A stretch of 64,000 nucleotides of DNA from Candidatus Woesearchaeota archaeon (lineage in GTDB: Archaea > Nanobdellota > Nanobdellia > SCGC-AAA011-G17 > GW2011-AR18), in the NCBI GenBank assembly GCA_018302765.1, contig JAGVZG010000001.1:68482-132481 (forward strand), written 5' to 3'. The position numbers and the translations under genes are program-made. The notes beneath the pieces were generated by a model. That model made no database searches. It was not told where the DNA came from and was given only the letters and a program-made list of their open reading frames with translations. Shown in pieces: positions 4,723 to 64,000 of this stretch (position 1 is the first letter of the stretch; the number at the start of each line of letters is the position of its first letter).

Positions 4723-6333
4723 ATGACTAGTTTTACTGCTGATGAAATTGCTTTATTGGCAAGATATGTTTCGGACCCTAATGAAAATATATTTGTTGTT
4801 AGTGGATTAACCGGTATAATTGGTGCAGTTTATGCGCGTTATAGTAGATCACCAACAGGTTTTAGAGAGACATTTCTTAGAGAATTCTTGAATAATGGAA
4901 ATTTGGATCCGAGAAGAGCAGATGAATTAATAGAGAGGGTCTTGGTTGCATATGGTGATGATTCTGTTGGCGAACTTGAGGGGACTCATCTGTCTATTGA
5001 GAACATATCTATTTTAGCCACAAAAGAAATTGAAGACAGGAGAATAGGTGGCTCTCCAATAGAACAATCAACCAGGTACATAATATATAATACTAAAGAT
5101 GATAATGGGAGATTTAGGTTTTTTAGAGATCCTAAAATTATGGCTTCTGAATTTGGACAAAGATGTGAAGACACACTTAATTTTGTTTTTCAAACTTATT
5201 CTGAATTAGTCTCTTTATTGCAAGATTATTTTAAAAAATTAAAACCTATTGAAGATACACAGTATGCTATTAGAGCTGGAGATGAAAGGGAGTATATGCT
5301 TAGTGATTTATCAGAAGAAAGAGACTTAAGAGCTTTTAGATTGACTTATAAGAATGATATTAAGACAAAGGCATGTGATGTAACCAGAGTTTTATTACCT
5401 GCTGCAACATTAACCAATATTGGTATTTTTGGCAATGGAAGATTTTTTCAGGGTTTGCTTTCACATTTATATACGTTAGATGCTTTTGAAATGAATGATA
5501 TTGCTGCTAGGGCACATACTGCTTTGAATACAGTGATGCCAAGATATGTCAAGAGAGCTAGCCGTAGTTATTATCTGCATTCTGTTGATGAGAATATGAA
5601 AGATTTATCTAATAGTATTTTTAGCAGTGTAACTCCAGATAATGATGAGGATGTTGTTTTGCTTGATAATCCAAAGAATGATAAGGAGTATATGGATTTT
5701 TTATTGGCTGTAATGTTGTATAAATATTCATTATGTCCTATGAGGCAAATTAGAAGTGTTATTAGTAAATTACCAGATGAAAGAAAAATTGAGATTTTTA
5801 ATACTTATATTTGTAATAGAGAAAATAGAAGAAACAGGCCAGGCAGGGCTTTAGAATTTGGATATCCTTTGACTTTTGATTTAACTTTAGACTATGGAGA
5901 CTATAGGGATTTAGAAAGGCATAGAATATTGACACAAGAAAGACAAATGTTAACTCCTGATATTGATTTTGTAATATCTGATGAAATAGATGCAGTTGGT
6001 TTTAGAGGCAGAGTAAATGAAGCAGTTGAAAGGTCTGCTGAGCTTTATAATTTACTAAAGAAAGATTTTCCTTATGAAGCACAGTATGCTGTTTTACTTG
6101 GATTTAAAATTAGATGGATGGTGGGAATGAATCCTAGAGAAGCTATGCATATGCTGGAACTAAGAACTGGAAAGCAAGGCCATCCAAGATATAGGGCTAT
6201 GTGTCAGTCAATGCATAACTTGATTTCTCAGAGATGGCCTTTAATTGGTGAATCCATGAGTTTTGTTGACCATAGATCTTATTATTGGAGCAGAGCAGAG
6301 TCTGAAGCTGGTCAAAGAAGGAGAGAAAAATAA
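4723..6333 (+). CDS. thyX: long-form flavin-dependent thymidylate synthase-like protein (ThyX-like)
   Basis: Contains an RHR motif (DLERHRILTQE) and an ARYSRS segment reminiscent of ThyX. At 536 aa it is about twice the length of canonical ThyX. Confidence 0.5.
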   Translation: MTSFTADEIALLARYVSDPNENIFVVSGLTGIIGAVYARYSRSPTGFRETFLREFLNNGNLDPRRADELIERVLVAYGDDSVGELEGTHLSIENISILATKEIEDRRIGGSPIEQSTRYIIYNTKDDNGRFRFFRDPKIMASEFGQRCEDTLNFVFQTYSELVSLLQDYFKKLKPIEDTQYAIRAGDEREYMLSDLSEERDLRAFRLTYKNDIKTKACDVTRVLLPAATLTNIGIFGNGRFFQGLLSHLYTLDAFEMNDIAARAHTALNTVMPRYVKRASRSYYLHSVDENMKDLSNSIFSSVTPDNDEDVVLLDNPKNDKEYMDFLLAVMLYKYSLCPMRQIRSVISKLPDERKIEIFNTYICNRENRRNRPGRALEFGYPLTFDLTLDYGDYRDLERHRILTQERQMLTPDIDFVISDEIDAVGFRGRVNEAVERSAELYNLLKKDFPYEAQYAVLLGFKIRWMVGMNPREAMHMLELRTGKQGHPRYRAMCQSMHNLISQRWPLIGESMSFVDHRSYYWSRAESEAGQRRREK

Positions 6334-6407: not shown

Positions 6408-7349
6408 TTGATTAATCGTGAATATTTTAATTATGATATGTTAAGACTATTCTGGTATTTTGTATGTGAGAGACAGAGCGTCTGGTATAAGCGTTTTTGT
6501 TGTAAATTAGATCCGCCATGGACCAAAGATATAATTTTACAAAAAGAGAGATTTACTAATGTTTATAGAGAATTAGATCCTGGAACGATTTACGCTATTA
6601 ATAATATACTTGAGGTTGATGCTCCAAAACAAGATAAAATTTTCAATACCATGTTCTATCGTTTGGTTGGTAGTTCCAATACTCACAAAGAAGTTGGATT
6701 TCAGAAACTAAGTTATTTTAATCCAGAGCATTTAGAGGCAAAGATGAAATATATTAGGGACGTTGAAAAGAAGTCTGTTTTTACTGCAGCTTATATGGTT
6801 AGTGGTTATTCCAAAATGGGTTCAAAAGATAAGGTAGAAAATGTTGTCAGGTTATTTACCAAACTGAGAAATTCTTTTGACTCTATTTATTCAGATATTC
6901 AAGGTTGCAAGAATTCTGAAGAGGTTTATAATGTTATTAGAGGTTTGTATGGTTTTGGCAATTTTTTATCATATCAGATATTGGTTGACTTGCTTTATCC
7001 TTTGAGAATATGTAAAGGCAAGAGTCTTTTACCTTATTCACATGATGACTGGGCAAGTGCAGGGCCTGGAGCAAAAATAGGAATCGAATTATTATTGAAA
7101 AAAGGCTTAAAGTTTAGCAATCTTGATGTAATGATGTGGTTAAGAAAAAATCAGTGTGAAGAATTTTTGAGGTTTGGCTTAAATTTTAATTATTTAACTG
7201 ATGACAAAGGTGATAAAATTGAGCTGTCTTTAGCAAACATACAGAACTGCCTTTGCGAATTTCATAAATACATTAAGATTAGGGATGGAACTGGAAGAGG
7301 AAGAAGAAAGTTTACTAGTGGTTTTTTTAATGTAAACAAAATATCCTAA
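6408..7349 (+). CDS. hypothetical protein (Trp/Tyr-rich N-terminus, no P-loop)
   Basis: 313-aa ORF. Its stop overlaps the convergent HIT gene. It is adjacent to the ThyX-like gene. Confidence 0.45.
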   Translation: MINREYFNYDMLRLFWYFVCERQSVWYKRFCCKLDPPWTKDIILQKERFTNVYRELDPGTIYAINNILEVDAPKQDKIFNTMFYRLVGSSNTHKEVGFQKLSYFNPEHLEAKMKYIRDVEKKSVFTAAYMVSGYSKMGSKDKVENVVRLFTKLRNSFDSIYSDIQGCKNSEEVYNVIRGLYGFGNFLSYQILVDLLYPLRICKGKSLLPYSHDDWASAGPGAKIGIELLLKKGLKFSNLDVMMWLRKNQCEEFLRFGLNFNYLTDDKGDKIELSLANIQNCLCEFHKYIKIRDGTGRGRRKFTSGFFNVNKIS

Positions 7350-14060: not shown

Positions 14061-15521
14061 TTATTTAACATTTCCTATCGGAATTAATTTTGTTACAGGT
14101 TTAGAAATTCCTGCTTTAGCTAATGCATCAATTACGTCATTTATTTCTTTGTATGCAGATCCTGCTTCTTCAGCTAATCCAGACATTGATCCAGACTTAA
14201 CATAAATCCCTCTTTGTTCCATTTCTTTTTGTAGTTGATCTCCTCTAAATTCTTTCTTGGCTTGATGCCTTGACATTGTTCTGCCAGAACCATGTGCTGT
14301 ACTTGAGAAAGTTTCATTGTCTGCTTTTTCTGTACCGACTAATAAATAACTTCCTGTTTCCATTGAGCCGCCAATTATTACTGGTGATCCTATATCTCTA
14401 TATAATTTTGAAACCTCTGAATTTCCTGGACCCTGACACAAAGTTGCGCCTTTTCTATGAACAACTAATTTTTTCTTTTTTCCATCAATTTTAAATTCTT
14501 GTAATCTTGCTAAATTATGAGCTACATCATAGACACAGTGCATCTCCATATCTTCTGCTTTAGTTTTGAAAATTTTTTCAAAACCTTCTCTTATTCTATG
14601 TAAAATTACTTGTCTATTTGCGAAAGCCATATTTGCTGCACAAGCCATTGCTTTGTAATAATCTTGTCCTTCCTTGCTTGAAAATGGAGCACATGATAAT
14701 TCTTTATCTAAAATTTTTATTTTTTCTCTTTGCATTACATTTTCAAAAATTTTTAAGTAGTCTGTAGCAACCTGATGACCAAAACCTCTAGAGCCACAGT
14801 GGAACATTATTACAATCTGATCTGGAAAAATTCCAAATTTCCTTGCTATATCTTTATCAATAATATTTTCTGGTTTTACATGCTGAATTTCTAGATAATG
14901 ATTACCTGAGCCAAGTGTTCCTAGTTGATCAATTCCTCTTTGTCTTGCTTTTTGTGAAACTTTACTTGAGTCAGCCCAGTCAATTCTTCCATTACTTTCT
15001 ATTCTTTCTAAGTCTTTTTGCCAACCATAATTATTTTCAACACACCATTTAACACCTTCTTCCATTACATTATTGAATTGCTGATTATTTATTTTTACAA
15101 AACCTTTGCAGCCTACACCAGATGGTACTGTTTGGAAGAAAGTATTCACTAGTTCTTTTAATTTAGGCTGAACGTCTTTAATTGTGAGATTTGTTGTAAC
15201 AAGCCTCATGCCACAATTTATATCAAAACCAATTCCTCCTGGAGAGATTACTCCTGTCTCAGCATCCATTGCAGCAACTCCACCAATTGGAAAACCATAC
15301 CCCCAATGCCCATCAGGCATGCATAGTGCAGCTTTTTGTATTCCAGGTAGGCATGCTACATTGGTTACTTGGTCAAACACTCCGGGATCCATTGTTTCTA
15401 ATAATTTTTTAGTTGCGTAAATCCTTGCAGGTACGTTCATACCTTGCTTGAAACTAGTTGGGATTTCCCAAACTGCTTCTTCTATCTGTTTTGTATCTTT
15501 TGGTATATTTGACATAATCAA
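14061..15521 (-). CDS. rtcB: RNA-splicing ligase RtcB
   Basis: 486 aa. Metal-binding motifs typical of RtcB are present, including DGHWGYGFPIGGV, HCGSRGFGH and NHYLE. Confidence 0.9.
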   Translation of the reverse strand: MIMSNIPKDTKQIEEAVWEIPTSFKQGMNVPARIYATKKLLETMDPGVFDQVTNVACLPGIQKAALCMPDGHWGYGFPIGGVAAMDAETGVISPGGIGFDINCGMRLVTTNLTIKDVQPKLKELVNTFFQTVPSGVGCKGFVKINNQQFNNVMEEGVKWCVENNYGWQKDLERIESNGRIDWADSSKVSQKARQRGIDQLGTLGSGNHYLEIQHVKPENIIDKDIARKFGIFPDQIVIMFHCGSRGFGHQVATDYLKIFENVMQREKIKILDKELSCAPFSSKEGQDYYKAMACAANMAFANRQVILHRIREGFEKIFKTKAEDMEMHCVYDVAHNLARLQEFKIDGKKKKLVVHRKGATLCQGPGNSEVSKLYRDIGSPVIIGGSMETGSYLLVGTEKADNETFSSTAHGSGRTMSRHQAKKEFRGDQLQKEMEQRGIYVKSGSMSGLAEEAGSAYKEINDVIDALAKAGISKPVTKLIPIGNVK

Positions 15522-18176: not shown

Positions 18177-18611
18177 TTAAATGTCAACAAGCACTTTTGC
18201 TTTCCATTTGTCTTCTTCTTTTATTATTTCAAATTCATGCATTGTAATTGCCTTTGCATCGTCATGGAGATCCTGAGTTTCTCTGTTGATAAAATCACCT
18301 TCACATCTTGCAAATATTTCATATACTTTATTTTTGTGTGATATAACAACATCGAACTTGTTAAACAGCAAACCTTCTGTGTCTTTAACAAATATAAGTT
18401 CTGAAAGAAAATCATAAAGAAGATTTTCTATGGAATTTGTTTTTAGTGATATTTCATAATGCTCTTTAGTCTCCAATGTTTTTATGTCTACCATGATTTC
18501 TTCTAGAGCCAGAGCTGAATTTTCAAATAGGCTTTCTAATGTTTTTCCATAGGCTTCAAAAATTATATCTGCTGTGTGTGGTAGAAATTTATACTTCATC
18601 TTCTTTAACAT
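18177..18611 (-). CDS. archease (RtcB activator)
   Basis: 144 aa. The N-terminal FLPHTADIIFEAYG motif (HTAD) and a C-terminal ...KVLVDI match the archease family. Confidence 0.8.
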   Translation of the reverse strand: MLKKMKYKFLPHTADIIFEAYGKTLESLFENSALALEEIMVDIKTLETKEHYEISLKTNSIENLLYDFLSELIFVKDTEGLLFNKFDVVISHKNKVYEIFARCEGDFINRETQDLHDDAKAITMHEFEIIKEEDKWKAKVLVDI

Positions 18612-19053
18612 TCCTTCTTTCTACAACAATATTTATTTGCGTTGTCACACCTTCTTTATCTTCCCTTATTAAAATATTTCTGTCAGTTATTTGTTTTACA
18701 ATGTCTTTTATTGTGTAATCTGACTTCATTTTATCTCCAATCAAAACAGCATTTAGCATATATTCATTTGAAATTTGTTCTATTGTGATCTGCTTTATTG
18801 CTGATAATACAAATAACTCGTTATTTGCTAGTTCAAATAATCTTTTTAGAAATTGGAAAAGCAGATTTTTAAGATCCCTTGCTCTTATTATCAGTGTTTT
18901 TGTAATAGCTAGATCTATTTCTTCTGTGTTTATTACAATTTCAAATAATGACTTTGCTATTTTTGAGAACGATGCTTCTAAACTTGATGCTTTTTCTGAT
19001 ATTGTTATTTCTTCGACTTTGTGCTTTGACATAAGCTTTTTAATGCAATGCAC
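18589..19053 (-). CDS. archease-like paralog lacking the HTAD motif
   Basis: 154 aa. ASSLEASFSKIAKSLFEIV and ARDLKNLLFQFLKRLFELANNELFV align with archease core helices, but the metal-binding H-T-A-D is replaced by T-I-S-E. It overlaps the archease start by 23 nt. Confidence 0.45.
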   Translation of the reverse strand: MHCIKKLMSKHKVEEITISEKASSLEASFSKIAKSLFEIVINTEEIDLAITKTLIIRARDLKNLLFQFLKRLFELANNELFVLSAIKQITIEQISNEYMLNAVLIGDKMKSDYTIKDIVKQITDRNILIREDKEGVTTQINIVVERRNVKEDEV

Positions 19054-19144: not shown

Positions 19145-21649
19145 ATGGGAAAGGTTTTGAACTACGTAGGTAGAGGCATAAGAAATTTTGTTAGAAGGCA
19201 CAAGAAAGGGATTTCGCTAGCTGGAGCTTTAGTATTTGGCACTTCTGCTGCTTTAACTTGTGGCATTTATAAGTATATAACTACTCCTCCAAAGGATTTT
19301 GGAAGAGTAGGGCAATACTGGCATACTTACAAAGAACGTGAAAAATTAAAAAGTATAGAAAATAATGGTGCTTTAGAAAATAAGTTGAATATAAATAGAA
19401 AAGATAATGGTTCTTCAGGCGGGGCTTATCCTGATCCTAATATAATAGGCATTTGGCCGTTAACTCCGGATAACGGAATTAAGGTAGTTACTTCCAGTGG
19501 CAGAGAAATTGTTACTAGATACGCCACTTGGAACTATGCTTCTTTGGATGAAGTACCTAAAACTGTTATAAATTCTGTTTTAAGTGTAGAAGATGCAGAC
19601 TATCTTGAGCATAAAGGAGTAAACTGGAATTTAAGGAAGATTAAGGGTTTATTTTCTCCTATTCTTGGTGGAAGACGTGTTGGTGGAAGTGGCATAACAG
19701 AACAAGTATCTAAAATGATGTTTACTGATTTTGGTAAGATAAAGCCTAGGAGATCAGCAATGCAGAAACTTCGTGAGTTGCGTTATGCTTATTATTTAGA
19801 TAGTGTGCTTGGCAAGGAACAAGTATTAGAATTTTATTTGAATACAACGCCATTAGGAGACAGTTGTTATGGCGTAAAGTGCGCTGCTATGAATTACTTT
19901 GGTAAGGAACTGAGTAATTTAACTTTTCCTGAGAGTTTGTTTTTAGCAGCAATTATTAAAAATCCAGGAGCAAATCCAAAGAATAGTGGTTTTGAATTTC
20001 AAAAACGTAGATATGACATGCTCTGTGAGTCTTTGCACGATCTTGAAAGGATTACTGAAGATCAATATAAGGAGTGCAAATCTGCAGATGTGATTAAAAT
20101 GAAGCCTGGCTTAAAAAGAAGAAGATCTCCAATAAGTGATCCTAGTGTTTTTAGTGCTTTGGCTTATGAATTAGAAAATTATGATTTTGATTTAGTTGAC
20201 AATGTTGTTCATCAGCCAAATCCAGGTTTTGGGTTTACAGTTTATACTACAATAAATGATGAGATGCATGACGCTTTAGGCCAAGCATTTGTGGATGGAC
20301 TTAAACCAAATCAAGAACAGGTTCAACTTGGCGCTGGCGCTGTGCTGAATAGCGAGGCTCAAATAGTTGCTATTTTAGGCAGGACAGACTACAGTACGCT
20401 AAGCGGAGCTTGGAGTTTTAGGAATCTTGCTGTAGCTGGGAGACGTGCTGCTGCTTCTTCAATAAAGCCTTTTGTTTATGGTTCTTGCTATGACCAAGAG
20501 AATTCAAATATTACATGCAAACCAGGCAATGTTATTTCTGATTCTAAAAAAGGATTGAGAAATCCTCCTCATAATTTTGATGGAAAGTATGAAAGAAGAA
20601 TGTCTTTAGCAGAAGCTTTAACTTCATCGAATAATGTAATAGCTTATAAAGTGTGTCGTAGAATTGGACTTAGAAATGTACTTCCAGTTATAGAAGCTGT
20701 TGGATTTGATGTTGCTGAATATGAAACAGTATTTAGGGACTGCAGAAATACTGCTTTAGGCTCAGGGCGTGTAACTCCTTTAGAACTTGCTGCTGCTTAT
20801 CGTGTTTTTGTAAAAGACGATGATGGTAATTTTTCTGCAGAATATAGAAAGCCAACAATTATTGATAGGGTTGATTTATGGTCTTTTAATTACAAAGTAA
20901 ATCTATCTGCAACAAAAGTTTTTCGTAGTGCTAACACAGTTGAATCTGTTAGAATTAGCTTAGACAGGCTTGGAAATAAAATTGTTGGCAGTAAATATGA
21001 AGCAGATATAGGTTTTAAGACTGGCACTCCAAACCCCACTACACATTGGTATTTAGGTGGAGTTCTTGACCTTGATAGTGTTTCTTATTCTATAGGTTTT
21101 CTGGCTGTGGCTAAACCTAAAGTTGTACCTTCAAAAAAAAATCCTAAGGTTTTAGTAAAAGTTTATCCTAATAAGTTGTATGCTAGTGGCGTTCTTGGTC
21201 CTGTGGTAAAAAGTTTTGTTGACGGAGTTGCTCCTAGAAAAGAAATGAAGCCTATTGATCTATATGTTCCTGCTGTTGCTAGCTTGGACAGCGTATGCAG
21301 TAATTATAATTTAGCAAGCGTTGAGCTAACTTTGCCTAGTGCTGATAATCACGATCTTGAGACACTGGGAGATATTTTAAGTGCTTGCTCTTCTTATTTT
21401 TCTGCTAATAATGAAAATGAAAAGTATGGCTTATTTTCTTACGCTGCAGGCCGTGTCTGGGAGACTTTGTACAGTAATGAAGCAACGTCTTCTCCAGGCA
21501 GCAAAACTGCTTTGCTTTACTATAGCAGTGCAATTAATTCTTATAAAACAGCTGTTCAGGAAGACAGTTTTAGTAGTTTAGCTGAAGAAAGAATTAGAGA
21601 TTTAAAGATTAAAAGAGAACAGGAAGCTAATAGAATTCATGCAGATTAA
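19145..21649 (+). CDS. class A penicillin-binding protein (bifunctional GT51 peptidoglycan glycosyltransferase / D,D-transpeptidase), N-terminal TM anchor
   Basis: GT51 motifs EDADYLEHKG, GGSGITEQ, QKLRE and VLEFYLNTTPLG...YGVKCAAMNYFGK...LTFPESLFLAAIIKNP. Transpeptidase motifs SSIKP (SxxK), SSN (SxN) and KTGT appear with canonical spacing. A TM segment lies near the N-terminus. Confidence 0.8.
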   Translation: MGKVLNYVGRGIRNFVRRHKKGISLAGALVFGTSAALTCGIYKYITTPPKDFGRVGQYWHTYKEREKLKSIENNGALENKLNINRKDNGSSGGAYPDPNIIGIWPLTPDNGIKVVTSSGREIVTRYATWNYASLDEVPKTVINSVLSVEDADYLEHKGVNWNLRKIKGLFSPILGGRRVGGSGITEQVSKMMFTDFGKIKPRRSAMQKLRELRYAYYLDSVLGKEQVLEFYLNTTPLGDSCYGVKCAAMNYFGKELSNLTFPESLFLAAIIKNPGANPKNSGFEFQKRRYDMLCESLHDLERITEDQYKECKSADVIKMKPGLKRRRSPISDPSVFSALAYELENYDFDLVDNVVHQPNPGFGFTVYTTINDEMHDALGQAFVDGLKPNQEQVQLGAGAVLNSEAQIVAILGRTDYSTLSGAWSFRNLAVAGRRAAASSIKPFVYGSCYDQENSNITCKPGNVISDSKKGLRNPPHNFDGKYERRMSLAEALTSSNNVIAYKVCRRIGLRNVLPVIEAVGFDVAEYETVFRDCRNTALGSGRVTPLELAAAYRVFVKDDDGNFSAEYRKPTIIDRVDLWSFNYKVNLSATKVFRSANTVESVRISLDRLGNKIVGSKYEADIGFKTGTPNPTTHWYLGGVLDLDSVSYSIGFLAVAKPKVVPSKKNPKVLVKVYPNKLYASGVLGPVVKSFVDGVAPRKEMKPIDLYVPAVASLDSVCSNYNLASVELTLPSADNHDLETLGDILSACSSYFSANNENEKYGLFSYAAGRVWETLYSNEATSSPGSKTALLYYSSAINSYKTAVQEDSFSSLAEERIRDLKIKREQEANRIHAD

Positions 21650-23185: not shown

Positions 23186-23497
23186 ATGCAAAAAGCAAGA
23201 ATAAAATTGGCAAGCGCTGAAATTGACTTACTCAATGAAGTAGTTAATTCTATAGTCGATATAGCTAAAAAAACTAATACTGTTATTAGAGGACCAATTC
23301 CTTTGCCAACTAAGAAATTAAAAATAACCACTAGAAAGTGCCCTTGCGGCGACGGCAGGGCTAGTTTTGATAGGTTTGAAATGAGAGTTCATAAAAGACT
23401 AATTGATTTAGGCGTTGATGAGAGAGCATTAAGATTAGTTATGAGAGTTCCTTTACCAAAAGGGGTGAACATAGAAATAAACCTTTTGGAGAAGTAA
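23186..23497 (+). CDS. rps10: 30S ribosomal protein S10
   Basis: 103 aa. The conserved tuf-rps10 order of archaea is present, and [11 protein letters not shown] matches the S10 loop. Confidence 0.85.
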
Positions 23498-28078: not shown

Positions 28079-28665
28079 GCGAGCTTCTAAATTGAGAAAT
28101 TATTTAATTAAGCTCGCGACCACTCTTTAGAGTGGAGTGAATGGTGTGTAGAAACATTATTCTAGAAATAGTTTAGGAATAATGCTGGTAAAGTGATGCA
28201 TCCCGAAGGAGGCAACGATGAGCATCTACTAGCAAAATACTCATGCACATTCAATCGCATGGAGCACATGGCATTTTGAATGGTGCACTAAGTATTGGTA
28301 TAATATATTCAGGCAAGACTACATTAAAAATCTTTGCCTGATTGCAATAAGCGAAGCTGCAAAGAAGAATAAGATAGAAATTATGGAAATTGAAGTGGAT
28401 GTAGATCACATTCATCTTATTGCTTCAATTCCACTAACAATGGCGCCTAGTAAAGCACTAAACTTAATCAAAGGATTTAGTGCTTACTTATTGTTTAAGA
28501 TTGTACCAAATCTCAGGCTTAGATATAGAAAAGGACATTTATGGAGCAAGGGAAAATTTGCAGCAAGTGTTGGGCATATAACTTTAGAAAATGCGAAAAA
28601 ATATCTCGAGGAGCATCACGCCAAATCAATTAAAGGAATCTCCACCCTTTAGGGTGTGAGAGGAT
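28079..28665 (+). mobile_element. IS200-like (tnpA-only IS200/IS605 family) element with subterminal hairpins
   Basis: Left hairpins GCGAGCTT/AAGCTCGC (28079-28117) and CCACTC-TTTA-GAGTGG (28120-28135). A similar CACCC-TTTA-GGGTG hairpin sits at the tnpA stop (~28645-28660). An HUH/Y1 transposase ORF lies in between. Confidence 0.55.
28233..28652 (+). pseudogene. tnpA: IS200/IS605 family transposase TnpA (HUH Y1), N-terminally degenerate or frameshifted
   Basis: The C-terminal two-thirds is conserved (EIEVDVDHIHLI HUH motif; GHLWSKGKFAASVG; catalytic Tyr region KKYLEEH). The in-frame upstream part has no ATG, and an ATG is found only in another frame. Confidence 0.55.
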
Positions 28666-29193
28666 GTCAATTTTTAGAAATGTGGAAACAAGCTGAGAGA
28701 TGATACAGGGTGTTTTATGGGATGTACTTTATATTCTAATTCTACTTATTATAACTATGAAAACAAAAATTAAATTGGAGGTAAATAAAATGCACTTATG
28801 TCATGAAACTGAGGATTTTGTGATTGTTTCAAAAGATCTCAAAAGTTAATTTTATATAGGTATGGAAGACTTTCTAAAATTACGCCGAGGTCGCCTAACC
28901 TGGTATGGCACAGGATTGCTATATAATGGTTTGCAAATATCCTGCGTCCTCACGGACTTGTGGGTTCAAAAACCATTTAGCACTATCAATGATGTGGCTT
29001 AGTGCCTTTAGATGATTGATAGTCCCACCCTATAAAGGTTCATTTAGAATCTTTAGGTGAACGGCGTTTATAGTAACTGTGCTTAAGACCTCGGATAAAC
29101 TTTTTTAATAGATAAAAATGGTAAAATAAAAGATATTATTGATAAAATTAATTGTGAAACACATGGTAAAGATGTTTTGGAGATGTTTTAAAA

Positions 29194-29454: not shown

Positions 29455-29651
29455 AAACTGAATGTCCCAAATGCAAAAGCAAGCACATTGATGCTGTTGA
29501 ATTAATGGGAAGTAAATTTCTAATATGTTTAAGTTGTGGTTATGATGAAAGTGAAAGTGTGTTAGATGTTTATCCAGAATCCAGGGGTGGAAAAGGCGGG
29601 AAAGGTACCCCTTATAAACGTGGTGGACCAATGAGAAGTGTAAAAAGATAA
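29451..29651 (+). CDS. small zinc-ribbon protein with Gly/Lys-rich basic tail
   Basis: CPKC...CLSCG (two CxxC pairs); the start overlaps the ferredoxin-like stop. Confidence 0.45.
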   Translation: MKTECPKCKSKHIDAVELMGSKFLICLSCGYDESESVLDVYPESRGGKGGKGTPYKRGGPMRSVKR

Positions 29652-32281: not shown

Positions 32282-32511
32282 TAAATTTTATTATTTTGTA
32301 GTTATTTTATTTTTTGTGAGCACTTTCAGATTTATCAGAACGGCCCCAATTGTTAATATAAAATAATAAGCATTGCTGGGGAAAGATGCTGTGCGCAGGA
32401 GTTGCGGCTACAAAAAGCTTCGTTATTAAATTGCTGTTTTTGATAAATGCTGCAAAATAGAAATCTTTATAAGTATGTTACTACTTTAGGGATGTTACGG
32501 AGTTTTGAATT

Positions 32512-48352: not shown

Positions 48353-48520
48353 ATGAGAGAAGGACACGGCAGATCTGGTGGTTTTAGAAGTATGGGTCCT
48401 AGAGAAATGCACGACGCAGTTTGTCATAAGTGCGGCGAACAGACTCAAGTACCATTTAAACCGGCAGAAGGAAGACCTGTATTTTGTAAGAAGTGTTACA
48501 TGGAAAATAAAGGAATGTAA
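48353..48520 (+). CDS. small Zn-ribbon protein (55 aa), not in the ORF track
   Basis: GGAGG Shine-Dalgarno 8 nt upstream of the ATG. The product is MREGHGRSGGFRSMGPREMHDAVCHKCGEQTQVPFKPAEGRPVFCKKCYMENKGM (CxxC-x17-CxxC). Confidence 0.5.
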   Translation: MREGHGRSGGFRSMGPREMHDAVCHKCGEQTQVPFKPAEGRPVFCKKCYMENKGM

Positions 48521-48567
48521 TAACCTCAATAATATAGCGTTCTAATCTAATTAATTATTTTTTATTT

Positions 48568-50347: not shown

Positions 50348-51055
50348 TTATATTTTTCTTGCAAATACTAAAAAAGCTGTATGTCCAAGCATTTGATTTT
50401 TAGGACGGACTTTTAATCCTTCAATATGCCACTCCCTTTCCAATAATTCTGAAACTTTCCACAGGTAGAATTTATTTTCTAAGTTTTTTACAAATTCCAT
50501 AACTTGCGTTATTGTTGGAAGATAAGCAACCAGAAAAGCTCCAGATTTTAAAGATTTCTGAGCATGATCAATAACTTTCCAAGGTTCTAATAAATCTAAA
50601 GTTATAATATCTAGGTCTTTTTCTTCTATTCCTTCATAAATATCTTGGTTTTTTATTTCTACTTTTAATTTTAAGTTTTCCAGATTTTCTTTTGCTATTT
50701 TATAAAATTCTGGATTTATTTCATAAGTTGTAACATCACAACCTATTCTAGCTAGATGCGCAGCTATTTTTCCAGATCCAGATCCTACATCAACTACTTT
50801 TGATTTTACACCAATTCCTGTTTCTGTTATAATTAATCCTATATCTTTAATGTGTGCTATTGCTGGACCTCTTTTTATTCCATGAATATTATCACTAAAA
50901 TTTGCATCAAATACTAGAAATTCCTTACCTATATCACTTTTAACTATGCCAGGTTTAATTTCTTTTTCTCTTATTACTCCAAACATACTATGGAAATCTC
51001 CTTTTTTATAATTAGATAAGTTTCCTTTTCTGTCTATTATTATTTTTGTAATCAT
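50348..51055 (-). CDS. trmI: tRNA (adenine57/58-N1)-methyltransferase TrmI
   Basis: VVDVGSGSGKIAAHLA SAM motif, DLLEPW (DLPxPW) motif, and an N-terminal beta-barrel domain; 235 aa. Confidence 0.7.
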   Translation of the reverse strand: MITKIIIDRKGNLSNYKKGDFHSMFGVIREKEIKPGIVKSDIGKEFLVFDANFSDNIHGIKRGPAIAHIKDIGLIITETGIGVKSKVVDVGSGSGKIAAHLARIGCDVTTYEINPEFYKIAKENLENLKLKVEIKNQDIYEGIEEKDLDIITLDLLEPWKVIDHAQKSLKSGAFLVAYLPTITQVMEFVKNLENKFYLWKVSELLEREWHIEGLKVRPKNQMLGHTAFLVFARKI

Positions 51056-51459
51056 AGCAATTTTCTCATTGATTTTTTCAAATTTTTTATTTTATTTATT
51101 ATTAATTCTGCTTCTTCTATAGAGACATCTTTTCCATAATAATTTATATTGTTTCTTATCTTTCTTATTTCATCAAATTCTTCTGCTTGTGAATTCATTT
51201 TTAGAATTTCTTTTAGAAATGGCGTGTAACATTCATGATTGTATATTTTGTATTTGTTTTTTATTGCTATTGCTTCTAGTAGTTCTCTTAGTGAATCATA
51301 AACTAAGCTTATTTTTGAACTTGCAGTTATTTTATCCATAATTAGCTTATCTTCTGATAGTTCTTTGTTTTTACTTGATTTTATTAAAGAATTAATTAAT
51401 TCGTTATCAATGTTAATTTCTTTTGCTATTCTTTTATTGCAACATTCTTTCCAATCCAT
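51052..51459 (-). CDS. HEPN-like domain protein (partner of adjacent nucleotidyltransferase)
   Basis: All-alpha 135-aa protein. IRKIRNNINYYG resembles Rx4-6H with Tyr in place of His. Confidence 0.45.
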   Translation of the reverse strand: MDWKECCNKRIAKEINIDNELINSLIKSSKNKELSEDKLIMDKITASSKISLVYDSLRELLEAIAIKNKYKIYNHECYTPFLKEILKMNSQAEEFDEIRKIRNNINYYGKDVSIEEAELIINKIKNLKKSMRKLL

Positions 51460-52085: not shown

Positions 52086-52598
52086 TTGTTAATGTCTTGT
52101 AATGGTGTGAATATAAAACAAAAATTAATTTACTTAAATATGATAGAGAAGGGAGAATTTCTTTTAAGGAGTGGTGGGAAAAGTAATATTTATTTTAATG
52201 TTAAAAAAGCATATGGAAATCCAGGCTTGCTGAGTAATATTGCAGATAATTTATTTAATTTGTTTGATAAGAATATCACATGCGTAGCTGCTTCTGGCCA
52301 TGGAGGTTTACCTTTAGCTACAGTTATAAGCCAGACTTATGATTTACCTTTGGTTTTAGTCAGACAAGAAATTAAAGATCATGGTTTGCAGAATAGTATT
52401 GACGGTTATATTCCTAATAAGACTGACAACGTTGCTGTAGTTGATGATGTTTTTACAACTGGAAGTAGTTTGTTAGATACAATAAGTATTTTGAAGAGTA
52501 TTACAAACATTGAAGGTTGTTATGTTGTTTTTAGAAGAACAGAGAATGATTTTAATTATAAGATTAAATTTTTATTTGATTACAGAGAATTTTTGTAA
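52086..52598 (+). CDS. type I phosphoribosyltransferase (orotate PRTase-like)
   Basis: PRPP-binding motif VAVVDDVFTTGSSL; 170 aa. Confidence 0.5.
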   Translation: MLMSCNGVNIKQKLIYLNMIEKGEFLLRSGGKSNIYFNVKKAYGNPGLLSNIADNLFNLFDKNITCVAASGHGGLPLATVISQTYDLPLVLVRQEIKDHGLQNSIDGYIPNKTDNVAVVDDVFTTGSSLLDTISILKSITNIEGCYVVFRRTENDFNYKIKFLFDYREFL

Positions 52599-52604
52599 AA
52601 ATTT

Positions 52605-52754
52605 TGGTGCGGGGGACAGGACTTTCGTTTTTGTTTAAACTTTTTCAAAAAGTTTGTATTCGAACCTGCGTAGGCCTGAGCCAGTAGCTCTTGAGGCTAC
52701 CCCGTCAAGCCATGGTTAATTTATAATCCATTTTGGCCACTCCGGCACCCCCGC
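52605..52754 (-). tRNA. tRNA-Leu(CAA) with two putative non-canonical introns (D-loop region and T-loop/T-stem junction), encoded CCA
   Basis: Acceptor GCGGGGG/CCCCCGC with discriminator A and CCA. Anticodon stem GTAGC/GCTAC with loop CTCAAGA (anticodon CAA). A long variable arm is present. The T-arm GCAGG-TTCGAAT...CCTGT is interrupted by a 37-nt insert containing hairpin AAACTTTTT-G-AAAAAGTTT. A ~26-nt insert lies between the D-loop and the 3' D-stem. Mature length is ~86 nt. Confidence 0.6.
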
Positions 52755-52841
52755 TTACAAAATAGATTTTAATGTTTATTTATAAGTATTTCTGACTAGC
52801 TATTCAAAATATTTATTAACATAACATTAACTTAATTTATT

Positions 52842-57375: not shown

Positions 57376-59139
57376 TTATTTTTTAACTATGTCTAATTTT
57401 ATATTAAGTTCTTTTAACTGTTTTTCATCAATGTCGCTTGGTGAGCCATCCATAGGACATTGAGCTGCTTTGTTTTTTGGAAATGCTATTACTTCTCTAA
57501 TGTCTTTTAATCCTATTAGTAGTGTAACTAATCTGTCTAAACCTATACCAACTCCTCCGTGTGGCGGACCAGCATACTTATATGCTTCAAGTAAAAATCC
57601 GAATTTCTTTTCTGCTTCTTTTTCACTTAACCCTATTATTGAGAATATTTTTTTTTGTATTTCTGGTTTGTGGATACGTAAGCTTCCTGAGCATAATTCT
57701 ACTCCATTTAAGACAAGATCATAAAGTGTTGCATATACTTTACCTGGATCAGAATCTAAAAATTTAATATGTTCTTGCTTTGGCATGCAAAACGGATGAT
57801 GTTCTGGTTCCCATTTTTGTTCTTCTTCATTCCATGCAAAAAGTGGAAAGTCTGTAATCCAGCAGAATTTATATTCATTTTTTGGAATGGTTTTAAGTTT
57901 TTCTGCTATTGCTAATCTAACTTGACCAAGCGCAGTGCAAGTAGTCTTGAAACTGTCTGCTATAAATAATAACAAATCACCTTCTTTTGCTTTTGTTACT
58001 TTTATTAATTCTTTTTGTAATTTTTCATCTATATATTTTGTAATTGAACTTTCTAGTTTTCCTTTTTCTACTTTTGCCCATGCCATTCCCTTAGCGTGAT
58101 ATCTTTTTGACAGTTCAATTAATTCATCAATGTCTTTTCTTGAGAAATTGGAGCAGCCGACTGCATTTAGACATTTAATTAATCCTTTATTTTTAACTGC
58201 TGACTTAAATACTTCAAAATCTGAATCTGCAACAGTATTAGTTACGTCAATTAATTCTAAATTAAATCTTAAGTCTGGCTTGTCAGATCCGTATCTTGAC
58301 ATTGCTTCATTATAAGATAATCTAACAAATGGTTTTTTGATTTTTATATTTCTTGTTTTAAATACTGCTTCCATTAATCCTTCTACAGTTTTAAATATGT
58401 CTTCTTCAGTAACAAAACTCATTTCTATGTCGATCTGCGTGTGCTCTGGCTGTCTGTCTGCTCTTAGATCTTCATCTCTTAGACATCTAGCTAATTGAAA
58501 GTATCTATCGCAGCCAGCCACCATAAGAATTTGCTTATATAATTGTGGGCTTTGAGGCAGGGCATAAAATTTTCCAGGATTTATCCTGCTTGGAACTAAG
58601 TAATCACGTGCTCCTTCAGGAGTTGGTTTTACGAGCATTGGTGTTTCTATTTCTAGGAATCCTTGAGACGATAGATATTCTCTTGCAGCTTGGGCAGCTT
58701 TATGCCTTATTAACAAACGTTCCTGCATTACAGGTCTTCTTAAATCTAGATATCTATATTTTAGTCTTATTTCTTCATTTGCTTCTATTCTGTCATCAAT
58801 TTCAAAAGGCGGAATTTCTGATTCATTTATTATTTCTAGTTTTTTAACCTCTACTTCAATTTCTCCTGTTATTAGTTTTTTATTTTCCATTCCTTTTGGT
58901 CTTTCTCTTACTTTACCTTCTATTTTTATACACCATTCTCTTCTTAGCTTATTTGCATCTGGAATTTTACTTGGATCTAGAACTACTTGGGTAAAACCAT
59001 ATTTGTCTCTTAAATCTATAAAGATAATACCGCCATGATCTCTTCTAGAGTTAACCCAACCACATAACTTAATCTCTTTTTTAATATCTTTACTTGTAAG
59101 TTGTCCACAAGTGTGGGTTCTTAGTGTTGTTGTTAACAT
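57376..59139 (-). CDS. aspS: aspartyl-tRNA synthetase, bacterial-type (with GAD insertion domain)
   Basis: 587 aa. N-terminal OB fold (GGIIFIDLRD) and class II motifs (FRAD...QPEHTQIDIE; GGVGIGLDRLV). Confidence 0.85.
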   Translation of the reverse strand: MLTTTLRTHTCGQLTSKDIKKEIKLCGWVNSRRDHGGIIFIDLRDKYGFTQVVLDPSKIPDANKLRREWCIKIEGKVRERPKGMENKKLITGEIEVEVKKLEIINESEIPPFEIDDRIEANEEIRLKYRYLDLRRPVMQERLLIRHKAAQAAREYLSSQGFLEIETPMLVKPTPEGARDYLVPSRINPGKFYALPQSPQLYKQILMVAGCDRYFQLARCLRDEDLRADRQPEHTQIDIEMSFVTEEDIFKTVEGLMEAVFKTRNIKIKKPFVRLSYNEAMSRYGSDKPDLRFNLELIDVTNTVADSDFEVFKSAVKNKGLIKCLNAVGCSNFSRKDIDELIELSKRYHAKGMAWAKVEKGKLESSITKYIDEKLQKELIKVTKAKEGDLLLFIADSFKTTCTALGQVRLAIAEKLKTIPKNEYKFCWITDFPLFAWNEEEQKWEPEHHPFCMPKQEHIKFLDSDPGKVYATLYDLVLNGVELCSGSLRIHKPEIQKKIFSIIGLSEKEAEKKFGFLLEAYKYAGPPHGGVGIGLDRLVTLLIGLKDIREVIAFPKNKAAQCPMDGSPSDIDEKQLKELNIKLDIVKK

Positions 59140-62739: not shown

Positions 62740-64000
62740 CTAATATTCCTACTGGTGTTGTAGCCAATACAATTGATAGAGACTCTATTATCGTTTCATG
62801 GAATGGGGATGCAACTGAATACTATGTTTTTGATATTTTTAATCCAAGTACTAATTCAGATTGGATTACTGGAACGTCTTATACTTTTAATAATTTAAAT
62901 TGTGGCGTTTTTTATAGCTTTAGTGTTAGAGGAAGAAATTCTATTGGTAATGAGACAACAGATTCTGAAGTTGTTTCAAATAGAACAGCTGACTGCCCAG
63001 CACCATTAAATCCTACTAGTGTTATTGCAGAAAATGCTACCAATGAAAGTATGGACATAAGTTGGACTCCTGCAAGTGGAGGTATAGAAACTAATTATAT
63101 AGTACAAAAATCTACTAATGGGTTTAGTTTTTCAACAATAGCAACAGTTCCTGCAATAGTTACATCATATCAAGCTAGAGATTTATTTACAGATACTAGT
63201 TATTGGTTTAGGATACAGTCAACTGACGGAACAATAATATCAAGTGGCACTGTATCAAGTCCTCTTTATACACTAGCAAATATTCCAGGAATTCCCACAT
63301 TGACTAGTGAAACTTCAAATACTATTAAAGTAGTAATAGATCCAGCTAATAATCCATTTAACACAGGGTACTTTTTATATGATTCTACAACAAATAAATA
63401 TCTTCAATCAGATTATAGTTGGGGAGATGTTTCTACTCGTGGTTTGTTTGGTTATTTTGGTTTAGGTGGACCAAATGGAGCAACTACAATAGGAATAAGT
63501 CCAAATAGTTTACATAGTATAAATGTTGCTTCTGTTAATGGTAATGGGATTGTAAGAGGTGGCTCTGCTGCTAATGTATATACTTTAGCAAGCATCCCTG
63601 CAAATGTTACAACAAATGCAAATAATAATAGTGCCATTACTGTTTCATGGAATGGAGATGCAACTGATTATTATGTTCTTGAGTCTTCTGGAATGAATTC
63701 AGACTGGATTACTGGAACGTCTTATACTTTTAATAATTTAAATTGTGGCGCTTTTTATAGCTTTAGAGTGAAGGGAAATAATGCTGTGGGCGCTGAGACA
63801 ATATATTCAAATGATTTTGGTCAGAGTACCCAAGCTTGTGATCCTACAGTTAATGCTCCTACAGATCTTCAAGTTGATTTTGTAACTAATGAGACAGTAG
63901 ATTTAAGCTGGACATCAGGAAGAGGAAGTGAGAGTACTTTTATAATAGAACAAAGTTTAAATGGAAATGATTTCAGTGTTGTAGGTTTCACTCAGTCTCT
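62697..64000 (+). pseudogene. continuation of the FN3-repeat protein in the +2 frame (more FN3 units; runs off the window end)
   Basis: Stop-free frame to the window end. It encodes repeats such as IVSWNGDATEYYV...NLNCG.FYSF.V.G.N. The junction lies inside an FN3 unit. Confidence 0.5.

What the first reader, a model, noticed from the sequence alone, without database searches (positions are those of the whole stretch)
52605..52754. tRNA-Leu(CAA) gene carrying two non-canonical introns
The minus-strand sequence reads GCGGGGGTGCCGGAGTGGCCAAAA-[~26 nt]-CGGG-GTAGC-CTCAAGA-GCTAC-TGGCTCAGGCCTAC-GCAGG-TTCGAAT-[37 nt incl. hairpin AAACTTTTTGAAAAAGTTT]-CCTGT-CCCCCGC-A-CCA. All stems of a class II Leu tRNA are present (discriminator A73, long variable arm, anticodon CAA). 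The mature length is about 86 nt only if two inserts are removed, one at the D-loop/D-stem boundary and one at the T-loop/T-stem boundary (about positions 59-61). Multiple non-canonical introns are a signature of some archaeal lineages, and exact BHB junctions could not be resolved by eye.
Basis: partly seen in the sequence, partly recalled or inferred. Interest (0 to 1): 0.55.

Follow-up and report, generated by a model that had tools for sequence, protein, structure and literature searches.

The report
Woesearchaeal tRNA-Leu gene with two introns
This is a real leucine tRNA gene from an uncultivated groundwater archaeon (Woesearchaeota), interrupted by two short protein-spliced introns that hide it from standard tRNA finders; the phenomenon is already known in archaea, so this is a new example, not a new kind of thing.

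Summary
Window 52754-52605 (minus strand) encodes tRNA-Leu(CAA) in three exons of 22, 47 and 17 nt. They are separated by a 27-nt intron in the D-loop (21/22) and a 37-nt intron in the T-loop (59/60).

- **Detection:** ARAGORN and Rfam find nothing in the raw 64 kb. The doubly spliced 86-nt product is called tRNA-Leu(caa).
- **Independent model:** a covariance model built only from 12 uninterrupted relatives matches the locus end to end (76.9 bits, E about 2e-15), with inserts at those two sites.
- **Junction structure:** intron 1 forms a near-canonical bulge-helix-bulge (BHB; HBh' type). Intron 2 forms a relaxed hBH/BHL motif, the same type and position as the ARMAN-2 tRNA-Cys intron that was cleaved in vitro.
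- **Relatives:** a different Woesearchaeota species (L008) has identical exons, a homologous T-loop intron and no D-loop intron.
- **Reproducibility:** ten independent assemblies carry both inserts (nine base-identical across the introns).
- **Splicing machinery:** the window encodes RtcB and Archease. No EndA endonuclease was found in it.
- **Second gene:** tRNA-Ser(GCU) with three introns lies at 28884-29066(+).

This is a new member of a known kind, and interest is modest. No RNA-level evidence of splicing was available.

The parts
52605..52754 (-). Complete tRNA-Leu(CAA) gene: 3 exons, 2 introns, encoded CCA at 52607-52605
   Evidence: Sequence; ARAGORN on the spliced product; covariance model R1 hit 52754-52608, 76.9 bits
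52733..52754 (-). Exon 1 (22 nt): 5' acceptor strand, 5' D-stem and D-loop up to A21
   Evidence: identical to L008, and to L007/L010 over this stretch
52706..52732 (-). Intron 1 (27 nt), D-loop 21/22. HBh'-type BHB: central helix GGCC/GGCU, bulges AA|A and UG|A, inner helix AUGG/CCAU. The outer helix is interrupted by GAGU before the D-stem.
   Evidence: Local fold; register scoring 4/4 central and 4 bp inner; 0.019% of shuffles reach this; absent from all 13 genome relatives
52659..52705 (-). Exon 2 (47 nt): 3' D-stem, anticodon arm (CAA), variable arm, 5' T-stem and T-loop 54-59
52622..52658 (-). Intron 2 (37 nt), T-loop 59/60. Relaxed hBH/BHL motif: the T-stem is the outer helix, central helix UUCG/CGAA, canonical 3' bulge AG|U, 5' side open. 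Internal hairpin AAACUUUU/AAAAGUUU.
   Evidence: Folds; register 4/4 central, 5 bp outer; 1.7% of shuffles reach this; homologous intron in L008
52605..52621 (-). Exon 3 (17 nt): U60, 3' T-stem, 3' acceptor strand, A73, CCA
52778..52785 (-). TTATAAAT, a TATA-box-like element centred about 27 nt upstream of G1 (inferred archaeal promoter)
   Evidence: Read from the sequence; inference only
52596..52600 (-). T5 run just after CCA (inferred transcription stop)
   Evidence: Read from the sequence; inference only
28884..29066 (+). Second hidden gene, tRNA-Ser(GCU), with three introns: 28922-28938 (17 nt, 37/38), 28971-29022 (52 nt, 59/60) and 29032-29061 (30 nt, acceptor 68/69, strict BHB CACC[CUA]...GGUG[AAC])
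   Evidence: GC-island scan; sequence; in-silico splicing plus ARAGORN; BHB scoring
14061..15521 (-). RtcB tRNA-splicing ligase (would join the exons)
   Evidence: Pfam PF01139, E 2e-169
18589..19053 (-). Archease (RtcB cofactor)
   Evidence: Pfam PF01951, E 1.6e-14

Best explanation
The locus is a functional tRNA-Leu(CAA) gene of a Candidatus Woesearchaeota archaeon, interrupted by two protein-spliced (BHB-type) archaeal introns.

Proposed pathway:
1. The gene is transcribed from a TATA-like promoter as a precursor of about 150 nt.
2. The archaeal splicing endonuclease EndA cuts at the two 3-nt bulges of each motif. For intron 1 (D-loop 21/22) this is GGCC[AA|A]AUGG...CCAU-GGCU[UG|A]. For intron 2 (T-loop 59/60) this is T-stem + UUCG[AA|U]...CGAA[AG|U].
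3. RtcB, with Archease (both encoded in the window), ligates the three exons into an 83-nt class II tRNA that ends in the genomically encoded CCA.

Shown here: the exon/intron anatomy, the junction registers, conservation of the exons and of the T-loop intron in another species, reproducibility across assemblies, and the presence of the ligase genes.

Inferred: transcription, EndA cleavage (the enzyme was not located, and intron 2 needs a broad-specificity enzyme), the order of intron removal, and aminoacylation.
For: - The quoted sequence is present.
- Only removal of both inserts gives an ARAGORN tRNA-Leu(caa).
- Model R1, built from 12 intact relatives, hits 52754-52608 over model positions 1-84 with 76.9 bits, E about 2e-15. 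The inserts fall exactly in the D-loop and the T-loop.
- The relatives' cloverleaf is 100% paired, with 8 pairs showing compensatory changes.
- The predicted ligated junctions equal the continuous sequence of intact orthologues.
- BHB registers: intron 1 has a 4/4 central helix plus a 4-bp inner helix. Intron 2 has a 4/4 central helix plus a 5-bp outer helix. Shuffle frequencies are 0.00019 and 0.017.
- L008 is a different Woesearchaeota species: its AspRS is 66% identical at DNA level and synteny is partial. It has 100% identical exons and a homologous T-loop intron (25 of 31 aligned positions identical). The intron-bearing gene has therefore stayed under purifying selection since the two lineages split.
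- Ten independent assemblies carry both inserts. Nine are base-identical across the introns. L031 has a 2-nt deletion at the 5' end of intron 1.
- RtcB and Archease are in the window.
- A second gene in the window, tRNA-Ser(GCU), has three BHB introns, one also at 59/60.
- Other metagenomic tRNA-Leu(CAA) genes carry 59/60 introns, including a strict hBHBh' in L018.
- Literature: a 59/60 hBH intron in ARMAN-2 tRNA-Cys is cleaved in vitro (PMC3239211). DPANN lineages, including Woesearchaeota and Pacearchaeota, show increased tRNA gene disruption and incomplete predicted tRNA sets (PMC5829648).
Against: - There is no RNA-level evidence of splicing.
- No EndA was found among the window's ORFs, nor among the Pfam calls for about 9 kb of upstream contig. 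This is only a fraction of the genome.
- Intron 2 lacks the inner helix and the 5' bulge (relaxed hBH/BHL). According to the literature, classical alpha4 and alpha'2 enzymes handle this poorly.
- Intron 1 has no contiguous outer helix, and it is not seen in any other species, so it has no comparative support of its own.
- In the global minimum-free-energy fold of the whole precursor, the intron-1 BHB is not the predicted conformation. It appears only in the local fold.
- A few assemblies carry uncompensated changes: anticodon-stem position 28 in L026 and L027, and a 2-nt deletion in the 5' bulge of intron 1 in L031.
- It is unknown whether the genome has another, intact tRNA-Leu(CAA).
Confidence: 0.88

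Rival explanations
1. The T-loop intron is a genuine, spliced intron, but the D-loop insert is a recent insertion that is spliced poorly or not at all. On this reading the copy is impaired or on its way to becoming a pseudogene in the window's population.
For: - The D-loop insert is absent from all 13 genome relatives, including L008 with identical exons, so it has no comparative support.
- Its outer helix is interrupted by 4 unpaired nt.
- One assembly (L031) has a 2-nt deletion in its 5' bulge, and two others have uncompensated anticodon-stem changes.
- The global MFE fold does not form its BHB.
Against: - The insert has a 4/4 central helix, two exact 3-nt bulges and a 4-bp inner helix in the correct register, reached by 0.019% of shuffles. 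A random insertion would not be expected to produce this.
- Excision regenerates exactly the D-loop of the intact relatives.
- HBh' D-loop introns are known substrates of broad-specificity EndAs (PMC5829648).
- Nine of ten assemblies are identical to the window across the intron.
Confidence: 0.07
2. The whole locus is a non-functional tRNA pseudogene or remnant carrying two insertions, for example debris from mobile-element integration into a tRNA gene.
For: - Standard tools do not call it.
- tRNA genes are common integration targets (general knowledge).
- An IS200-like transposase remnant lies near the other disrupted tRNA.
Against: - Exons are 100% identical to L008, while neighbouring coding DNA is only about 66% identical.
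- All stems are intact, and both inserts sit in a BHB register.
- No repeat or extra copy of intron 1 exists in the window.
- Promoter-like and terminator-like signals are in place.
- The splicing ligase genes are present.
Confidence: 0.04
3. The inserts are an assembly artefact, or the tRNA resemblance is due to chance.
For: None beyond the negative ARAGORN and Rfam results on the raw sequence.
Against: - Ten independent assemblies from different samples and assemblers reproduce the locus.
- The covariance model E-value is about 2e-15.
Confidence: 0.01

Closest known systems
ARMAN-2 (Ca. Micrarchaeum acidiphilum) pre-tRNA-Cys(GCA) intron at 59/60, relaxed hBH/BHL motif (Fujishima et al. 2011, PMC3239211)
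   Same: Same insertion site (T-loop 59/60), same relaxed motif type (outer helix, central helix and 3' bulge, with the 5' side open), and a DPANN host. That intron was shown to be cleaved in vitro by the host's EndA.
   Different: The intron here is 37 nt rather than 13 nt and has an internal hairpin. The tRNA is Leu, not Cys. The host is Woesearchaeota, whose EndA type was not determined here; ARMAN-2 uses the epsilon2 enzyme. The gene carries a second intron in the D-loop.
Methanopyrus kandleri pre-tRNA-Glu(UUC), with a D-loop HBh' intron plus a second intron (Kaneta et al. 2018, PMC5829648)
   Same: A two-intron tRNA, one intron being an HBh'-type relaxed BHB in the D-loop near position 21. 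Broad-specificity EndA cleaves it efficiently.
   Different: The second intron there is at the canonical 37/38 site, whereas here neither intron is canonical. The phylum and tRNA isotype also differ.
Multi-intron tRNA genes of Thermoproteales (Sugahara 2008 and Fujishima 2010, as reviewed in PMC4033280 and PMC8450103)
   Same: Up to three BHB introns per tRNA at non-canonical positions. These genes are hidden from standard finders, and there is evidence for lineage-specific intron gain.
   Different: Those hosts are TACK archaea with (alpha-beta)2 EndA carrying the L1/CSL loop. Here the host is a DPANN archaeon. No sequence-similar intron copies that would indicate transposition were found in the window.
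Disrupted tRNA genes reported for DPANN MAGs, including Woesearchaeota RBG_13_36_6 and Pacearchaeota RBG_13_33_26 (Kaneta et al. 2018, PMC5829648)
   Same: Same superphylum and same class of phenomenon. That paper explicitly predicts undetected disrupted tRNA genes in these lineages.
   Different: This specific gene, its junctions and the presence/absence polymorphism of its introns were not described in the text available to me.

Membership tests
Archaeal protein-spliced (BHB / EndA-dependent) tRNA intron | Removing the insert(s) restores a canonical cloverleaf tRNA | tested here: met
   ARAGORN calls only the doubly spliced sequence. The covariance model built from intact relatives aligns all 84 positions with two local inserts.
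Archaeal protein-spliced (BHB / EndA-dependent) tRNA intron | The exon-intron junctions lie in two 3-nt bulges separated by a 4-bp helix (strict hBHBh'), or in a recognised relaxed form (HBh', hBH/BHL) | tested here: met
   Intron 1 is HBh': 4/4 central helix, both 3-nt bulges and a 4-bp inner helix. Intron 2 is hBH/BHL: 5-bp outer helix, 4/4 central helix and a 3' bulge, with no inner helix. Neither is the strict form.
Archaeal protein-spliced (BHB / EndA-dependent) tRNA intron | The host is an archaeon (or eukaryote) | tested here: met
   EF-1alpha with the eEF1A C-terminal domain, RtcB and Archease. Exact protein matches are named Candidatus Woesearchaeota archaeon by NCBI. The nearest tRNA relatives are all DPANN MAGs.
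Archaeal protein-spliced (BHB / EndA-dependent) tRNA intron | The host encodes a splicing endonuclease (EndA) able to cut relaxed motifs | tested here: inconclusive
   No EndA domain was found in the 50 window ORFs scanned with Pfam (the 49 of at least 150 aa plus 51052-51459; the unannotated ones and two ORFs of about 120 aa rescanned at E up to 0.1). None appears in the precomputed Pfam calls for about 9 kb of upstream contig either. Only about 73 kb of the genome was visible. The literature reports alpha4 EndA with an L3 loop in such DPANN lineages (PMC5829648).
Archaeal protein-spliced (BHB / EndA-dependent) tRNA intron | The host encodes the 3'-phosphate RNA ligase RtcB for exon joining | tested here: met
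   RtcB at 14061-15521(-), E 2e-169. Archease at 18589-19053(-).
Archaeal protein-spliced (BHB / EndA-dependent) tRNA intron | The intron is actually excised and the exons ligated (RNA evidence) | not testable with these tools
   No transcriptome data were accessible.
Class II tRNA-Leu | Leu anticodon, long variable arm with its own stem, and discriminator A73 | tested here: met
   Anticodon CAA, variable-arm stem GGC/GCC, A73. The gene is homologous to 12 intact tRNA-Leu(CAA) genes.
Split or permuted tRNA gene | Exons encoded at separate loci or in permuted order | tested here: not met
   All three exons are colinear on one strand within 150 nt.
Self-splicing group I / group II intron | Catalytic intron core (hundreds of nt; matches the Rfam intron models) | tested here: not met
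   The inserts are 27 and 37 nt. There are no Rfam hits in the window even at E up to 1.

The most novel reading that the evidence does not exclude
The window and L008 may capture a very recent gain of a BHB intron. The exons are identical and the T-loop intron is shared, but the 27-nt D-loop intron is present only in the window lineage. This would be in a DPANN lineage reported to have an alpha4-type EndA with the L3 loop.

The 59/60 site recurs in Leu and Ser here, and in several unrelated metagenomic tRNA-Leu genes, so it looks like an insertion hot spot.

If true, this pair of genomes would be a natural before/after case for how archaeal tRNA introns are gained. It would also be a defined substrate set (strict, HBh' and hBH motifs) for testing whether L3-loop alpha4 enzymes really have broad specificity.
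Probability: 0.35. Interest if true: 0.45.

Novelty: new member of a known kind. Interest (0 to 1): 0.3.

Why it matters
**Practical point.** Both tRNA genes in this 64-kb stretch are invisible to ARAGORN and Rfam. tRNA complements and completeness estimates of Woesearchaeota and other DPANN MAGs will therefore be understated unless intron-aware, lineage-aware searches are used. Kaneta et al. 2018 already suspected this gap.

**Biological point.** The locus adds concrete, junction-resolved examples for a poorly characterised phylum: an HBh' intron at 21/22, hBH introns at 59/60 and a strict BHB at 68/69. Together with L008 it gives an intron presence/absence contrast on identical exons. That contrast is useful for studying intron gain or loss, and the substrate range of DPANN splicing endonucleases.

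It does not change the current understanding of tRNA splicing.

Tried and rejected
- **Standard finders on the raw window.** ARAGORN, and Rfam at both gathering and E up to 1 thresholds, gave no hits at all. This shows that these tools miss such genes. It is not evidence against the gene.
- **Removing one insert only.** No tRNA was called, so both inserts must be removed.
- **Extra copies of intron 1 in the window** (transposition hypothesis). With up to 3 mismatches only the intron itself was found.
- **EndA search.** The window's ORFs of at least 150 aa plus a few smaller ones were scanned with Pfam, and the precomputed Pfam calls for about 9 kb of upstream contig were checked. None was found. 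Extension downstream was not possible because the contig ends just past the window.
- **Other GC-rich islands as possible further hidden RNAs.**
  - 23327-23370 lies in an ORF resembling ribosomal protein S10 (by eye, not scanned).
  - 48354-48521 is a small zinc-ribbon ORF.
  - 62740-64000 is an fn3-repeat ORF.
  - 29581-29611 is coding.
  - 32330-32450 folds no better than shuffles (z = -0.11).
  - Sources.
- **Upstream 9.6 kb (L032).** No tRNA, GC island or credible T-loop motif.
- **Literature look-ups that failed.** PMC1852824 (Sugahara 2007) is not held. No supplements are held for PMC5829648. PMC12397907 had no relevant passages.
- **Group I/II intron or split/permuted readings.** Rejected on size, colinearity and the lack of Rfam hits.

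Full report
**1. Observation**

The window is AT-rich (30.9% GC). The proposed exons stand out as GC-rich islands.

ARAGORN finds no tRNA in the 64 kb. Rfam finds no RNA family at all, either at gathering thresholds or at E up to 1. The claim therefore had to be tested in other ways.

**2. Is it a tRNA with two inserts?**

I defined exons of 22, 47 and 17 nt and inserts of 27 and 37 nt.
- ARAGORN calls nothing in the precursor, and nothing in either singly spliced form.
- It calls the doubly spliced 86-nt sequence as tRNA-Leu(caa). The fold has a 7-bp acceptor stem, a 3-bp D-stem, a 5-bp anticodon stem, a variable-arm stem, a 5-bp T-stem, A73 and CCA.

As a test that does not depend on my parse, I scanned the GTDB species genomes with a pattern that allows 8-38 nt between the 5' end and the anticodon arm.
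- Thirteen loci came back, all from Nanoarchaeia, Woesearchaeota or Pacearchaeota MAGs.
- Twelve carry an uninterrupted tRNA-Leu(CAA) that ARAGORN recognises.
- Their cloverleaf is 100% paired, with compensatory changes at 8 pairs.
- A covariance model built from those twelve alone hits the window at 52754-52608(-). It covers model positions 1-84 with 76.9 bits, E about 2e-15.
- The hit has two local inserts, 28 nt in the D-loop and 38 nt in the T-loop. There is no other hit in the window.
- The intact relatives read GGCCAAACGGG in the D-loop (L007, L010) and GGTTCGAATCC in the T-loop. These are exactly the ligated junctions I predicted.

**3. Junction anatomy**

I used the standard archaeal rule. 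Each cut falls between the 2nd and 3rd nucleotide of a 3-nt bulge, and the two bulges are separated by a 4-bp helix. This is established knowledge, summarised in PMC5829648 and PMC6379350.

*Intron 1 (52732-52706)*
- It forms GGCC[AA|A]AUGG-loop-CCAU-GGCU[UG|A]CGG.
- The central helix is 4/4, both bulges are exactly 3 nt, and the inner helix is 4 bp.
- Four unpaired nucleotides (GAGU) separate it from the D-stem, so it is an HBh'-type motif.
- The junction is D-loop 21/22. Because of the A-run, 22/23 gives the same product.

*Intron 2 (52658-52622)*
- The T-stem serves as the outer helix (5 bp).
- UUCG(54-57) pairs with CGAA at the intron's 3' end (4/4), followed by a canonical 3' bulge AG|U.
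- The 5' side opens into a loop that holds an 8-bp hairpin (AAACUUUU/AAAAGUUU) and an A-rich tail. This is a relaxed hBH/BHL motif at 59/60.

*Chance expectation.* Shuffling each intron reproduces these registers in 0.019% of trials for intron 1 and 1.7% for intron 2.

**4. Comparative evidence**

*L008 (CAYXPX010000001.1, Ca. Woesearchaeota)*
- It belongs to a different species or genus. Its AspRS is 66% identical at DNA level, and synteny around the tRNA is only partial.
- Its tRNA-Leu exons are nonetheless 100% identical to the window's.
- It carries a homologous T-loop intron of 31 nt: the same 5' end, the same hairpin with a different loop, and a shorter tail. Of the 31 aligned positions, 25 are identical.
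- It has no D-loop intron.
- The T-loop intron therefore predates the split of the two lineages, and the interrupted gene has stayed under strong purifying selection. That argues it is spliced.
- The D-loop intron is either a recent gain in the window lineage or a loss in L008.

*Metagenome scan*
- L018 has a strict hBHBh' intron at 59/60.
- L019 and L020 combine a 59/60 hBH intron with a D-loop intron at a different site (15/16).
- L021 has introns at about 30/31 and at 59/60.
- So 59/60 is a recurrent site.

*Independent assemblies*
- Ten assemblies from different samples reproduce the window's locus. Nine are identical across the introns.
- Three carry variants. L031 has AAAA to AA at the 5' bulge of intron 1. 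L026 and L027 have uncompensated substitutions at stem position 28, and L026 has a second change in the variable arm.
- This excludes an assembly artefact.

**5. Context**

- The organism is an archaeon. The window encodes EF-1alpha of the eEF1A type, and exact protein matches are named Candidatus Woesearchaeota archaeon by NCBI.
- The contigs come from the groundwater project PRJNA268031.
- The window encodes the exon-joining half of the archaeal splicing pathway: RtcB (14061-15521, E 2e-169) and Archease (18589-19053).
- It also encodes a GCD14/TrmI-like tRNA methyltransferase next to the locus.
- No EndA was found in the window or in about 9 kb of upstream contig. The contig ends just downstream.
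- A TATA-like TTATAAAT lies about 27 nt upstream of G1, and a T5 run follows the CCA. These are inferred signals only.

**6. A second hidden gene**

The GC-island scan exposed 28884-29066(+), a tRNA-Ser(GCU) with three introns.

| Intron | Length | Site | Motif |
|---|---|---|---|
| 1 | 17 nt | canonical 37/38 | central helix 4/4, weak inner helix |
| 2 | 52 nt | T-loop 59/60 | relaxed; central helix 3/4 |
| 3 | 30 nt | acceptor 68/69 | strict BHB: CACC[CU\|A]-9 bp-GGUG[AA\|C] |

- About 0.001% of shuffles reach the register of intron 3.
- The spliced 84-nt sequence with CCA appended (87 nt) is called tRNA-Ser(gct) by ARAGORN.
- Both tRNA genes detectable in about 73 kb of this genome are therefore multi-intron. 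Neither is visible to the standard tools.

**7. Mechanism**

The most likely pathway is:
1. transcription of a precursor of about 150 nt;
2. EndA cleavage at the four bulge sites;
3. RtcB/Archease ligation;
4. a mature 83-nt class II tRNA-Leu ending in the encoded CCA.

The anatomy, the conservation and the ligase genes are shown here. Cleavage itself, the enzyme type and the order of intron removal are inferred.

Intron 2 needs a broad-specificity endonuclease. The literature shows that an identical type of intron (59/60, hBH) in ARMAN-2 tRNA-Cys is cut by that organism's EndA (PMC3239211). It also reports that DPANN lineages, including Woesearchaeota and Pacearchaeota MAGs, carry L3-loop EndAs associated with increased tRNA gene disruption (PMC5829648).

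**8. Comparison with what is known, and novelty**

- Multiple non-canonical BHB introns (up to three per gene) are well documented in Thermoproteales, Thaumarchaeota and ARMAN-2. They have been inferred for other DPANN lineages (PMC4033280, PMC8450103, PMC3239211, PMC5829648).
- Kaneta et al. explicitly predicted undetected disrupted tRNA genes in DPANN genomes.
- This locus meets the structural criteria for membership. In vivo excision and the endonuclease remain untested.
- It is therefore a new member of a known kind.
- The modest added value is threefold: resolved junctions in Woesearchaeota, the intron presence/absence contrast on identical exons, and a demonstration that routine tools miss these genes.

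**9. Verdict**

Confidence is about 0.88 that this is a functional, EndA/RtcB-spliced tRNA-Leu(CAA) gene. Interest is 0.3.

Noticed in passing
window 28884-29066 (+): A second hidden gene, tRNA-Ser(GCU), with three introns (37/38, 59/60 and acceptor 68/69). ARAGORN and Rfam miss it. No CCA is encoded, unlike the Leu gene.
   Followed up: yes
window 28233-28652 (+): An IS200/IS605 TnpA-like (HUH/Y1 transposase) reading frame with no in-frame ATG at its N-terminus, flanked by hairpin-prone sequence. It ends about 230 nt upstream of the disrupted tRNA-Ser.
   Followed up: partly
window 14061-15521 (-) and 18589-19053 (-): RtcB tRNA-splicing ligase and Archease are encoded about 3 kb apart in the same window as the two multi-intron tRNA genes.
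   Followed up: partly
window 19145-21649 (+): An 834-aa protein with penicillin-binding-protein transglycosylase and transpeptidase domains, which is unusual for an archaeon.
   Followed up: no
window 57376-59139 (-): A bacterial-type AspRS with a GAD insertion domain in an archaeal genome. Its orthologue in L008 is syntenic.
   Followed up: no
L031, L026, L027 (independent assemblies of window 52605-52754): Population variants. L031 has AAAA to AA in the 5' bulge of intron 1. L026 and L027 carry two different uncompensated substitutions at anticodon-stem position 28 (T to G and T to C). L026 also has a C to G change in the variable arm. These may be real microdiversity or assembly errors.
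   Followed up: partly
L019 1688-1838 (+), identical in L020; L018 1576-1682 (+); L021 2689-2845 (-): Other metagenomic tRNA-Leu(CAA) genes with T-loop 59/60 introns. L019 and L020 also have a 32-nt D-loop intron at 15/16, a different site from the window's. L018 has a strict hBHBh' motif. L021 has a 51-nt intron at about 30/31.
   Followed up: partly
L005 from about 865 and L017 (downstream of their tRNA-Leu): Directly after the intact tRNA-Leu there are T-arm-like sequences on the opposite strand (GGATTTGAACC...). These may be further, possibly disrupted, tRNA genes.
   Followed up: no
window 28971-29022 (+), tRNA-Ser intron 2: The 52-nt intron contains AUGAUGU and GAUGAUUGA, which resemble C/C' boxes, but no clear CUGA D box. 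Whether it encodes a small guide RNA was not examined.
   Followed up: no
window 4723-6333 (+) and 6408-7349 (+): A 536-aa ThyX-domain protein with a long N-terminal extension lies next to a protein with the helical domain of 5-hmdU DNA kinase. This hints at DNA base hypermodification chemistry.
   Followed up: no
window 50348-51055 (-): A GCD14/TrmI-like (m1A58-type) tRNA methyltransferase about 1.5 kb from the tRNA-Leu gene. Its target position, 58, is next to the 59/60 intron site.
   Followed up: no
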